Source: a virus
UHGV virus genome: UHGV-0106586
Strand: one strand, 5' to 3'
Length of the DNA: 61,990 bases
How positions within the stretch are numbered: the stretch's first letter is position 1; the number at the start of each line of letters is the position of its first letter. Both the position numbers and the translations under genes were made by a program. The notes beneath the pieces are model-generated. The model saw only the letters and a program-made list of their open reading frames with translations, was not told where the DNA came from and ran no database searches. Positions 50,616-51,406 of this stretch are shown piece after piece.

Positions 50616-51406
50616 TAATAAGTCTCCTTCTTATTCGGATTTACTGAGTGCTTTTGTAATGCCTTTCCAGTTCCAGCAGTCCTATTTAATGCTGCTCCGG
50701 CATTTTTTTCAGCCTCGTCACTAAATGTAGTAACACCTTTTCTTGTCTTTGCAGACATTGAACATTTTCCAAGAGCCTTATCTTCATCACTAGAAAGTTC
50801 CCTTACACCGTTGGCATTTATGTCAAATAGCAACTGGCAGTTTAATTTACCATTGCCTAAACTTGTTGTAGTGTTGCCAGTATTCTTTTTACTGGTAGCA
50901 CCACCGTCATTTGTAGTAGAAGTCTTTCCAGTGGCTGCTGAAATATCAGTCTGACCCACAACGGCTTTGAAGTTAATCTCCTGAAAAGTTAACTGGATAC
51001 GAAGACCGTTAGAGATAGTAACATCTTTAGAGGCTTTAAAACTCGTGATAATGGAGTCATCAATCTTGATTCCATCTTTACAGATGACCGAAATGATTTG
51101 CTTCTGGTCACGCCAGCTTTCAAGAGTGTCGATGAAGTTCTCTACTAATTGACCCTGACGAGTTAATAATAAGCTTCCTTCGTAGCCAACTACAACGACA
51201 CCACTAATAGAGATGGTCTTAGGTGCTCTTTGCACATTATCTGTGACGGTTTGCCCTGATTGCATATTCTGTGTAGTTACCTGCATAGGGCTGTCAAATT
51301 CCATATTTTCAGTTGCTGATAAGGTTAAGAAGGCATCTACATTATCTCTTAAGTGGAAGTAAACGCCATCTTTGCCAGTATAACGAAGTTGATTAGAGTA
51401 AATCAT
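50615..51406 (-). CDS. tail protein with Gly/Thr/Ser-rich linker and C-terminal ~80-aa two-Cys domain; paralog of the partial ORF at the window end
   Basis: ATG 51406 with AAAGGAGA RBS; linker [29 protein letters not shown]; C-terminus ...[10 protein letters not shown]. Confidence 0.5.

What the first reader, a model, noticed from the sequence alone, without database searches (positions are those of the whole stretch)
50850..50949. Duplicated tail-gene segment: internal copy near-identical to the last 100 nt of the window (61891-61990)
61891-61990 matches 50850-50949 at ~88% identity, with the final ~60 nt identical. Both lie on the minus strand inside ORFs, and the identical stretch encodes a Gly/Thr/Ser-rich linker ([20 protein letters not shown]). 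Downstream, the two ORFs encode diverged but clearly related ~70-95-aa C-terminal domains, each with two Cys and ending SVNPNK. One copy sits after the tape measure gene; the other is next to the recombinase-like gene. This suggests paralogous modular proteins with exchangeable C-terminal domains, with the conserved linker as a possible recombination or gene-conversion tract. The copies are direct, not inverted, so a simple invertible switch is unlikely.
Basis: seen in the sequence. Interest (0 to 1): 0.6.

Follow-up and report, generated by a model that had tools for sequence, protein, structure and literature searches.

The report
Phage contig fused to chromosomal island
The repeated stretch is real, but its two copies belong to two different genetic elements: a Felix O1-like lytic coliphage and an 11-kb E. 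coli chromosomal island (probably a phage satellite) that carries look-alike copies of two of the phage's tail genes and that the assembler joined to the phage through the shared sequence.

Summary
The repeat is confirmed: 91/100 identical, 123 nt at 86%. The terminal identical run is exactly 55 nt, which I recall as the largest default k of metaSPAdes. The window is a whole metaSPAdes contig.

Window 1-51382 is a Felixounavirus (about 94% nt to many isolates). Window 51383-61867 is foreign. It is the excised, circularly permuted form of an ~11.5-kb island that sits in the yecE gene of many E. coli chromosomes. The island carries a large serine recombinase, a tape-measure homologue (TMP') and a tube-initiator/Dit-like homologue (TI').

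Copy 1 lies in a hybrid TI gene with an island-type 5' end and a phage-type C-terminal domain. Copy 2 is the island's own TI' 3' end.

In sister assemblies, phage and island share a 100%-identical 416-nt ring-domain segment. Both contigs break exactly k nt into it. The contig therefore runs from phage through the shared segment, once round the island, and stops on re-entry.

Whether phage and island are physically joined (a cointegrate) or only joined by the assembler cannot be decided without reads.

However, the two genes are phage/island homologues, not paralogues within one phage.

The island is most likely an undescribed satellite or hijacker of virulent Felix O1-like phages.

The parts
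1..50614 (.). Felixounavirus (Felix O1-like virulent myovirus) genome segment: nucleotide metabolism, replication, tail fibres, baseplate, plug and hub genes.
   Evidence: About 93-95% nt identity over 92-99% of the query to many Escherichia/Salmonella Felixounavirus isolates. Gene order matches NC_071010. An independent MEGAHIT contig (L022) is 100% identical over 39297-51069.
50615..51406 (-). Copy 1 gene: tube-initiator (TI, Dit-like) protein, 263 aa. It is a hybrid of a phage-type C-terminal domain (50615-50849), the linker (50850-50949), a ring domain, and an island-type 5' end ([14 protein letters not shown]).
   Evidence: Pfam Dit_like PF21821, E=4.8e-20. 90% identical to Bas63 gp18 'tube initiator protein', PDB 9NDY. 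All 13 phage-type proteins start MLWD[SN]NMQIKY, whereas the island proteins mostly start MIYSN/MIFSN/MIYTN (some start MFD[KT]K). This exact protein occurs only in this contig.
50850..50949 (-). Repeat copy 1 (the finding): codons for the Gly/Thr/Ser linker of TI.
   Evidence: 91/100 identical to 61891-61990. The last 55 nt are identical.
50895..51358 (-). Segment S: the ring-domain sequence shared identically by phage and island. In sister assemblies S is 50943-51358 (416 nt). In this contig the island copy already merges at 50895.
   Evidence: MEGAHIT phage contig L022 and island contig L003 both end at 51069, and L003 starts at 51232. That is exactly 127 nt (k127) into S from either side. 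The metaSPAdes island contig L005 ends 55 nt after its last SNP.
51383..61867 (.). Island DNA with no nucleotide match to any phage record, except about 170 nt at the TMP 5' end. Together with S and the linker it forms one 11,041-bp circular permutation of the island.
   Evidence: No phage hits. 97-99% identical to yecE-inserted islands in E. coli chromosomes over the structural-gene and AP2-side segments, about 95% over the recombinase/C-term' segment.
51564..53612 (-). TMP': island tape-measure homologue, 682 aa.
   Evidence: Pfam TMP_3 and TIGR02675. 29-30% aa identity to Felixounavirus TMPs, which are its best phage relatives. N-terminal ~45 aa and C-terminal LLSSS[FY]PE[DE] are conserved. 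The exact protein occurs in 1583 collection blocks, including complete chromosomes.
53771..57368 (-). Eight small island ORFs (67, 102, 236, 107/118, 95, 71, 92, 185 aa). The 95-aa one is HNH_3; the rest are orphans.
   Evidence: Same gene set in chromosomal copies. No Pfam, PHROG-function, PADLOC or NCBIfam assignment except HNH.
57909..57991 (.). Core of a ~95-nt tandem unit in the ORF-poor region. Copy number is 1 here, 2 in L003 and L007, 3 in L004.
58769..59284 (+). HNH_3-AP2 homing-endonuclease-like gene, here a pseudogene with three in-frame stops.
   Evidence: 86% aa match to the intact 174-aa chromosomal protein. Stops are seen in the translation.
60325..60331 (.). attP core TGATTTT: the junction of the two island ends, meaning this is the excised/circular form.
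   Evidence: The chromosomal junctions ...GGGTGATTTTTATTAGAC... and ...CCTTGATGATTTTAGACAGCC... flank the island inside yecE. The window has ...CCTTGATGATTTTTATTAGAC....
60400..61659 (+). Large serine recombinase, 419 aa, with an in-frame 88-aa deletion (aa 79-166 of the 507-aa chromosomal protein) that removes the DRLSR motif and the following helix.
   Evidence: Pfam Resolvase+Recombinase+Zn_ribbon_recom. Alignment to the 507-aa form. The 419-aa form is found only in metagenome contigs; each of the four other contigs examined spans the attP junction.
61674..61990 (-). Copy 2: 3' part of the island's own TI' gene, with an island-type C-terminal domain (61674-61889) and linker (61890-61990). 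It is cut by the contig end.
   Evidence: 96% nt identity to the chromosomal island TI' C-terminal domain, and 51% to the phage type. L003 continues it for 120 nt into the ring domain. Full-length chromosomal TI' is 256-258 aa.

Best explanation
The two repeat copies are the conserved linker codons of two homologous tube-initiator (Dit-like) genes that belong to different elements.

(1) One element is a virulent Felix O1-like phage.

(2) The other is an ~11-kb island that normally sits in the E. coli yecE gene. It moves by a large serine recombinase and encodes its own versions of two proteins of the phage's tail-tube initiation complex: a tape measure (TMP') and a tube initiator (TI').

In this sample the island is in excised, circular or concatemeric form (intact attP). 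Its TI' ring domain is identical to that of the co-occurring phage over about 416-464 nt. The de Bruijn assembler therefore walked from the phage's TI C-terminal domain into the shared segment, out into the island's TMP', once round the island, and stopped when it re-entered the shared segment. The last 55 nt equal k.

Shown: the identity of both elements, the attP junction, the shared identical segment, and the break points at exactly k.

Inferred: the island is a satellite or hijacker of Felix-like phages. It would excise and multiply during infection, and use TI' (phage-compatible ring, island-specific C-terminal extension) and TMP' (phage-compatible ends, about 55-65 aa shorter) to take over or poison tail-tube initiation. 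Homologous recombination in co-infected cells would keep the ring module matched to the helper, with the linker as its 3' boundary.
For: Phage identity.

Foreign segment:
- It is absent from 50,697 phage records.
- Island-like DNA is found in 550 of 5426 complete E. coli genomes, 117 of them with at least 80% coverage, always chromosomal.
- It splits yecE between yecD and yecN.

Excised form: attL, attR and attP share the core TGATTTT.

Homology to phage parts:
- TI is 90% identical to Bas63 gp18 (PDB 9NDY).
- TMP' has its best phage relatives among Felixounavirus TMPs, with conserved ends.
- Only TMP', TI' and HNH/AP2 have phage homologues.

Modular identity profile: 95.7% / 83.9% / 50.9% for ring / linker / C-terminal domain.

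Shared segment and assembler signatures:
- Terminal run is 55 nt.
- L003 and L022 end at the same base, 127 nt into S. L003 starts 127 nt before the end of S.
- L005 ends 55 nt after its last SNP.

Co-occurrence: the same phage strain and the same island variant are found in runs of PRJEB12124.

Role of TI from the literature: the hexamer adapts the hub to the tube, and a ~100-aa C-terminal extension runs through the baseplate beside the spacer proteins (PMC12609058).
Against: - No read-level data. The physical state of the island (free circle, concatemer, or joined to phage DNA) is not observed.
- Satellite behaviour (helper-induced excision, replication, packaging) is inferred only from co-occurrence in bulk faecal metagenomes that probably come from one cohort.
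- No replication initiator, packaging or capsid-remodelling gene was recognised in the island.
- This island variant has a dead recombinase and a decayed HNH-AP2 gene. That is odd for a satellite that should re-integrate, and it fits long-term linkage to another replicon.
- metaSPAdes did choose the phage-to-island path, which may reflect real read support.
Confidence: 0.7

Rival explanations
1. The join is real. The island is inserted in the phage genome by a single homologous crossover between the two TI genes (a phage-island cointegrate). The phage would then carry two TI genes and two TMP genes in direct repeat, and the integrase-dead island would propagate as a passenger of the phage.
For: - metaSPAdes produced one contig across the shared segment with uniform reported coverage (contig name).
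- The island variant has lost recombinase catalysis and its HNH-AP2 gene.
- That recombinase variant is seen only in metagenome contigs; each of the four other contigs examined spans attP. This fits long-term non-integrative carriage.
- The de Bruijn graph seen in sister assemblies (2-in/2-out around S) is equally compatible with this model.
- The left boundary of S differs between assemblies, which implies ongoing crossovers.
Against: - None of the ~250 Felixounavirus records that match this region has the island, TMP' or an island-type C-terminal domain.
- No hybrid TI gene of either polarity was found in IMG/VR, against 9 normal ones.
- The exact hybrid protein exists only in this contig.
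- An extra 11 kb on an ~86-88-kb genome is a 13% overload (inference).
- A single crossover between non-identical parents would not leave two identical 416-nt copies.
- A shared segment of 464 nt probably exceeds what short-insert pairs can bridge, so the path may lack support (inference).
Confidence: 0.3
2. One reading: two paralogous tail genes of one phage with exchangeable C-terminal domains, possibly swapped by the neighbouring recombinase.
For: The modular architecture and conserved linker are real. A recombinase gene is adjacent to copy 2.
Against: - Copy 2 and its 10.5 kb of neighbours are a chromosomal island with its own att sites in yecE.
- The recombinase's crossover site is at 60325-60331, about 1.5 kb from the repeat.
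- The recombinase copy here lacks its catalytic motif.
- The repeats are direct.
- No sequenced Felixounavirus has a second copy.
Confidence: 0.03
3. The island is not a satellite. It is a decaying remnant of a prophage, or a stationary defence/decoy island, and its presence next to the phage is a pure mis-join with no biological interaction.
For: - Many chromosomal copies carry IS insertions.
- Most of its ORFs are orphans, and no packaging or replication genes are recognised.
- The metagenomes are bulk faecal samples that also contain E. coli.
Against: - The island is seen with an intact attP junction and without chromosomal flanks in 10 metagenome contigs.
- It shares 416 nt at 100% with the co-occurring phage strain, although that allele is only about 93% identical to every other phage or island. 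This requires recent recombination in the same cell.
- TMP' is 100% conserved across more than 1500 collection blocks.
- Felix-like phages are virulent and have no integrase (recalled, not checked here), so a 'prophage remnant' of them is unlikely.
Confidence: 0.15

Closest known systems
[quoted passage not shown]
   Same: A chromosomal island with a large serine recombinase. The partner is a virulent myovirus rather than a temperate phage. Phage and island exchange gene modules. The excised form appears when the phage is present (here only by co-occurrence).
   Different: No RepA_N initiator or other PLE genes were detected. The host is enterobacterial and the site is yecE. The island is 11 kb versus ~18 kb. 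It carries homologues of the helper's tape measure and tube initiator, which are not a known PLE feature (from my own knowledge). No experimental evidence exists.
Putative E. coli satellites predicted by Barth, Nguyen and Seed 2023 (NAR Genom Bioinform lqad076; PMC10448857)
   Same: [quoted passage not shown] They are linked to virulent myoviruses through shared sequence, and a subset has a serine recombinase.
   Different: Those elements carry capsid and decoration genes and RepA_N. Most use a tyrosine integrase next to tRNA genes (the serine subset sits at a lysR-type gene). They are tied to Justusliebigvirus phages (Inny, Muut, Mt1B1_P17). The present island has none of these, sits in yecE and matches Felixounavirus. 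The accessions of the islands studied here (CP018965, CP058901) and the term yecE do not occur in their supplementary files as held (two files were cut when stored).
Tube initiator protein gp18 of Felixounavirus Bas63 (PDB 9NDY; Sci Adv 2025, PMC12609058)
   Same: Copy 1 is 90% identical. It has the same tube-like ring domain plus a ~100-aa C-terminal extension, and the same gene position between TMP and plug/hub.
   Different: Copy 1 has an island-type 5' end and upstream region. Copy 2 has a C-terminal domain only about 45% identical in protein to the phage type.
Tail-assembly interference by satellites and defence islands (Tai systems; Nat Commun 2024, PMC11364771)
   Same: The concept: a mobile island acts on the helper's tail assembly step (abstract seen).
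   Different: Tai proteins are not tail-protein homologues as far as I know, and no sequence relation was tested. Here the candidate effectors are look-alikes of the tail-initiation proteins themselves.

Membership tests
Tube initiator / Dit-like tail protein (Pfam PF21821; Bas63 gp18) | N-terminal tube-like ring domain recognised by the family profile | tested here: met
   PF21821 E=4.8e-20 for copy 1. Profile vs PDB gives 9NDY_A at E=7.6e-153. Chromosomal TI' also carries PF21821. The window's copy 2 fragment lacks this part because the contig ends.
Tube initiator / Dit-like tail protein (Pfam PF21821; Bas63 gp18) | Gene lies directly after the tape-measure gene and before the plug/hub genes | tested here: met
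   Phage order is TMP-TI-plug-hub. Copy 1 is followed by plug and hub but preceded by the island TMP'. In the island the order is TMP'-TI', then the recombinase, with no hub genes.
Large serine recombinase (integrase) | Resolvase catalytic domain + Recombinase domain + zinc ribbon | tested here: met
   All three Pfam domains are present in the 507-aa chromosomal protein and, more weakly, in the window protein.
Large serine recombinase (integrase) | Intact catalytic domain (conserved DRLSR arginines and E-helix) | tested here: not met
   The window copy lacks aa 79-166 of the chromosomal protein, including ...LIESLDRLSRQ.... The role of these residues is recalled from knowledge of resolvases.
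Large serine recombinase (integrase) | Defined attP / attL / attR with a short common core | tested here: met
   The core TGATTTT is shared by the window junction (60325-60331) and both chromosomal junctions in yecE.
Phage satellite (broad sense) | Integrated, att-flanked element with its own integrase that lacks most virion, packaging and replication genes | tested here: met
   (context). (only TMP', TI' and HNH/AP2 are recognisable).
Phage satellite (broad sense) | Helper-dependent excision and replication | tested here: inconclusive
   The excised attP form, without chromosomal flanks, co-occurs with one Felix-like strain in several runs. One island contig has coverage 285. No time course or phage-free control is available.
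Phage satellite (broad sense) | Packaging in helper virions and transfer to new cells | not testable with these tools
   The samples are bulk faecal metagenomes. No virion-fraction data are available.
PLE | RepA_N replication initiator and cognate origin; other PLE genes | tested here: not met
   No Pfam, PHROG or NCBIfam hit to RepA_N or any PLE protein in the island ORFs.
Barth et al. 2023 putative E. coli satellites | Capsid and decoration genes, RepA_N, tyrosine integrase beside a tRNA gene | tested here: not met
   None are present. The island uses a serine recombinase in yecE. Direct sequence comparison was not possible because CP057957 is not in the collection.
Invertible-segment / shufflon switching of tail genes (Gin, Cin, Rci type) | Inverted repeats flanking alternative 3' gene segments, acted on by the adjacent recombinase | tested here: not met
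   The repeats are direct. The recombinase's site is elsewhere.
De Bruijn assembly break at a repeat | Contig ends exactly k nt into sequence already present elsewhere in the graph | tested here: met
   55 nt for this metaSPAdes contig and for L005. 127 nt for both ends of the k127 contig L003 and for the end of L022. The default k values are recalled from knowledge of the assemblers.

The most novel reading that the evidence does not exclude
A family of chromosomal islands, found in roughly 5-10% of complete E. coli genomes and also in Salmonella, Shigella and E. albertii, are satellites of virulent Felix O1-like phages. They work by substituting the tail-tube initiation complex with their own tape measure and tube initiator, whose ring module is kept identical to the helper's by recombination. 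The lineage caught here has lost its integrase and travels either as a cointegrate inside the phage genome or as an obligate extrachromosomal hitch-hiker.
Probability: 0.3. Interest if true: 0.8.

Novelty: new variant of a known kind. Interest (0 to 1): 0.62.

Why it matters
- Felix O1-like phages are classic virulent phages of E. coli and Salmonella, used for typing, biocontrol and therapy (from my own knowledge). To my knowledge, well-characterised satellites of virulent phages are essentially limited to PLE/ICP1.
- A common E. coli island that mimics two core tail-initiation proteins of these phages, and visibly recombines with them, would be a new handle on several questions: how satellites or defence islands exploit tail assembly, how virulent phages exchange genes with bacterial chromosomes, and why some strains resist such phages.
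- There is also a practical point. Metagenomic 'phage genomes' can be phage-satellite chimeras created at shared genes. A direct repeat that ends a contig with exactly k identical bases is a warning sign.

Tried and rejected
- Circular phage genome closing at the window ends: rejected. The start of the window is unrelated, and the second copy is island DNA.
- tRNA or Rfam RNAs in the ORF-poor island region: none found.
- P0040 (263 aa, longest contig 11,173 nt) looked like the complete island TI' on a circular contig. It turned out to be a divergent Felix-like phage.
- Search for hybrid TI genes of either polarity in IMG/VR: none, against 9 normal Felix genes with the same anchors. The anchors need exact matches, so power is low.
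- A C-terminal-domain motif search in IMG/VR and JGI metagenomes found only further island variants, no phage-island junction.
- Assigning the shared segment S to phage or island by best match: impossible. It is 93.0-93.5% identical to the best of both pools.
- Testing whether divergent island lineages (ring domain ~74% to Felix) match another known phage genus: no closer phage exists in the collection.
- AlphaFold2 on the TI alignment: poor overall (mean pLDDT 39.7), confident only for aa 187-243 (a small helical domain). The fold search returned only the Bas63 protein itself.
- HMM search of the 71-aa C-terminal domain against 1.84 billion representatives: no homologues outside this protein family.
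- PADLOC, PHROGs and NCBIfam on the small island ORFs: nothing beyond HNH.
- Literature searches for Felix O1 / Ounavirinae satellites or a yecE island with a tape-measure gene: nothing found.
- Fetching CP057957, the serine-recombinase representative among the Barth et al. elements: not in the collection.
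Full report
**1. The observation**

- Window 50850-50949 and 61891-61990 are 91/100 identical.
- The ungapped repeat is 123 nt (50827-50949 / 61868-61990, 86%), with a spacing of 11,041 nt.
- The run of identity at the very end of the window is exactly 55 nt.
- Both copies lie on the minus strand in reading frames. Copy 1 is in ORF 50615-51427 (ATG at 51406, 263 aa). Copy 2 is in an ORF that runs off the window end (61674-61990).
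- The encoded linker is identical in both. The C-terminal domains that follow (77 and 71 aa) each have two Cys and end in SVNPNK.

**2. What the window is**

- The window is an entire metaSPAdes contig: ENA ERZ1304109 NODE_478_length_61990_cov_33.97.
- Positions 1-51382 are a Felixounavirus, about 93-95% identical in nucleotides to many E. coli and Salmonella isolates. Gene order matches Salmonella phage RPN213.
- From 51383 to 61867 nothing matches any of 50,697 phage records at nucleotide level. The exception is about 170 nt at the 5' end of the tape-measure gene, at 74%.
- The last 123 nt again resemble the Felix gene, at 80-87%.

**3. What the foreign 10.5 kb is**

- The 682-aa tape-measure-like protein (TMP', 51564-53612) occurs with exactly this sequence in 1583 blocks of the assembly collection. 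These include complete ~4.8-Mb chromosomes.
- In E. coli MS10495 and Ecol_517 the same gene set forms an ~11.5-kb island that splits yecE (DUF72), between yecD and yecN.
- The island order is:
  - large serine recombinase (507 aa);
  - 'phage baseplate protein' (Dit-like, 257 aa);
  - tape measure;
  - eight small ORFs, one of them HNH;
  - a ~1.6-kb ORF-poor stretch;
  - an HNH-AP2 gene.
- Related DNA is present in 550 of 5426 complete E. coli genomes, 117 of them with at least 80% coverage. It is always chromosomal.
- Protein names show it also occurs in Salmonella, Shigella and E. albertii.
- Aligning chromosome and window shows that the window carries the two island ends joined to each other. 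The chromosomal junctions are GGGTGATTTTTATTAGAC and CCTTGATGATTTTAGACAGCC. The window reads CCTTGATGATTTTTATTAGAC, with the common core TGATTTT at 60325-60331.
- The window therefore contains the excised (attP) form of the island, opened inside its Dit-like gene.

**4. What the two copies are**

- The Dit-like protein is the 'tube initiator' (TI). It is 90% identical to gp18 of Felixounavirus Bas63, PDB 9NDY.
- According to the Bas63 structure paper (PMC12609058):
  - TI hexamers adapt the threefold hub to the sixfold tube;
  - the last 25 residues of the tape measure contact the hub.
- Copy 2 is the 3' end of the island's own TI' gene. It is 96% nt identical to the chromosomal island and 51% to the phage type in the C-terminal domain.
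- Copy 1 lies in a hybrid gene.
  - Its C-terminal domain is phage-type (93.5% to RPN213).
  - Its start codon region, upstream spacer and upstream neighbour (TMP') are island-type.
  - All 13 phage-type proteins retrieved start MLWD[SN]NMQIKY, whereas the island proteins mostly start MIYSN/MIFSN/MIYTN (a minority start MFD[KT]K), as does copy 1.
  - The exact 263-aa hybrid protein is on record only in this contig.

**5. Why the contig looks like this**

Sister assemblies give the key.

- L022 is a MEGAHIT k127 contig of 62,259 nt from run ERR1190805 of PRJEB12124. It is 100% identical to window 39297-51069 and ends at 51069.
- L003 is a k127 contig of 11,008 nt from ERR1190806. It carries the whole island, from 51232 round to the island C-terminal domain. 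It continues 120 nt beyond the window end, ending at the equivalent of 51069.
- The island copy in L003 differs from the phage at four sites in 50933-50942. It is then identical for exactly 127 nt at that end, and its other end overlaps by 127 nt as well.
- In those samples, phage and island therefore share an identical segment S = 50943-51358 (416 nt). This behaves as a two-in/two-out repeat.
- The metaSPAdes island contig L005 ends exactly 55 nt after the same last SNP.
- In the window the island copy merges 48 nt earlier, at 50895, and the contig ends 55 nt later.
- The '60 nt identical tail' is thus one k-mer of the assembler. Default k values are from my knowledge of the programs.
- The contig is: phage left arm, then S, then one turn of the island, then a stop on re-entry to S.

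**6. Is the join physical?**

The same graph arises in two situations. One is a free phage plus a free circular island. The other is a cointegrate made by a crossover between the two TI genes. Only reads spanning S can tell them apart.

For a chimera:
- None of the ~250 Felixounavirus records that match this region carries the island, TMP' or an island-type C-terminal domain.
- No hybrid gene of either polarity is found in IMG/VR, against nine normal ones.
- Eleven extra kb is a 13% overload (inference).

For a real linkage:
- The assembler did choose that path.
- This island lineage has an 88-aa in-frame deletion that removes the DRLSR motif of its recombinase.
- It has three stop codons in its HNH-AP2 gene.
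- The truncated recombinase is seen only in metagenome contigs, and each of the four other contigs examined spans the attP junction. This suggests long-term life without integration.

I put about 0.3 on a stable cointegrate. Transient joined molecules are likely in any case, given the evidence for recombination below.

**7. Evidence for recombination at this module**

- Between a chromosomal island (L007) and a Felix phage (RPN213), identity is 56.7% upstream of the gene, 95.7% in the ring domain, 83.9% in the linker and 50.9% in the C-terminal domain.
- Other island lineages have a ring domain only 71-74% identical to any known phage. The phage-like ring is therefore an acquisition in part of the family.
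- The S allele of this phage/island pair is only 93.0-93.5% identical to the best match in either pool, yet 100% identical between the two partners. That requires a very recent exchange in a shared cell.
- The left edge of the shared tract differs between assemblies of the same population: 50943 versus 50895.
The exchange is between a phage and a chromosomal island, not between paralogues.

**8. How it most likely works (inference)**

- The island carries homologues of only two phage structural proteins, TMP and TI. Both are parts of the hub complex that starts tube polymerisation.
- TMP' keeps the N-terminal ~45 residues and the C-terminal LLSSS[FY]PE[DE] of the phage protein. It is otherwise about 30% identical and 55-65 aa shorter.
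- TI' keeps a helper-identical ring but has its own C-terminal extension.
- The C-terminal domain has no homologues outside this family. In the AlphaFold model it is a small helical unit and the only confident part, aa 187-243.
- The simplest reading is that the island is a satellite or hijacker of virulent Felix-like phages. It would excise on infection and insert its own initiator pair into tail assembly. This would either spoil helper tails or build particles suited to itself.
- No replication, packaging or capsid-size genes were recognised, so this remains a hypothesis.

**9. Comparison with what is known**

- The closest described things are PLE/ICP1, and the putative E. coli satellites of Barth, Nguyen and Seed (2023).
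- The Barth et al. elements also carry a tape measure and a baseplate component. However, they have capsid genes, RepA_N and mostly tyrosine integrases at tRNA genes, and they are tied to Justusliebigvirus.
- I found no paper on satellites of Felix O1-like phages, or on a yecE island of this kind.
- I therefore class the biological content as a new variant of a known kind (a phage satellite of a virulent phage). The repeat itself is the footprint of a shared gene plus an assembler stop.

**10. Caveats**

- The metagenome contigs probably come from one cohort: PRJEB12124, bulk faecal DNA of type 2 diabetes patients. The origin of ERZ130xxxx and JGI 3300029816 is unknown to me. Independence of the observations is therefore limited.
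- The right-hand boundary of S (51358/9) is inferred from the start of L003 and from typical Felix alleles. It was not seen directly in a phage right-arm contig.

Noticed in passing
window 51538-51552, 53682-53696, 56153-56167, 59606-59620, 59835-59849: The motif AGATTTCACGTAGCA (up to 2 mismatches) occurs five times, only inside the island part (0.13 expected by chance). Two exact copies sit in 66-nt repeats that flank the TMP' gene (51487-51552 and 53631-53696). It may be an island-specific regulatory or binding site.
   Followed up: partly
window 57909-57991; L003 6680-6856; L004 1-290; L007 5513-5690: A ~95-nt promoter-like or iteron-like tandem unit in the ORF-poor part of the island varies in copy number: 1 in the window (possibly collapsed), 2 in L003 and the chromosome, 3 in L004. 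It is a candidate origin or regulatory array.
   Followed up: partly
window 60236-60314: A perfect 33-nt tandem repeat (2.4 copies, CTCATAGTTGATTCGGATGTTCTAGGAATCATC) lies directly beside the attP core. The chromosomal copy (L011) has a different, non-duplicated sequence at that place.
   Followed up: partly
window 60400-61659: The recombinase has an in-frame 88-aa deletion between two KAG/13-nt microhomologies. It removes the conserved DRLSR motif. This 419-aa form is on record only in metagenome contigs, never in an isolate genome.
   Followed up: yes
window 58769-59284: The island's HNH_3-AP2 endonuclease-like gene is a pseudogene here, with three in-frame stops. The phage part of the window carries a related HNH-AP2 gene at about 34298-34675 (31-48% aa).
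   Followed up: partly
L020 6635-8863 (ENA ERZ27269988 k141_61235): In this Felix-like phage contig the tape-measure gene is called as two ORFs (225 and 457 aa) with a 177-nt gap. This may be an intron/HEG insertion or a frameshift.
   Followed up: no
L034/L035 (ENA ERZ27235485/65): A divergent Felix-like phage (84-90% nt) has a ~174-nt spacer between TMP and TI and a TI that starts MFDTK. This start is also seen in some island proteins (MFDKK/MFDTK), hinting at further phage-island exchange at the 5' end of the gene.
   Followed up: no
phage record GU169904.1 (Staphylococcus phage SA1), hits: A Staphylococcus phage record contains Felixounavirus-like TI sequence (about 89% to the window linker). 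This is probably a contaminated or chimeric database entry.
   Followed up: no
window 42042-44904: There are internal direct repeats (57-86 nt, 60-81%) within and between the two tail-fibre genes 42042-44387 and 44434-45621. These look like ordinary fibre repeat modules.
   Followed up: no
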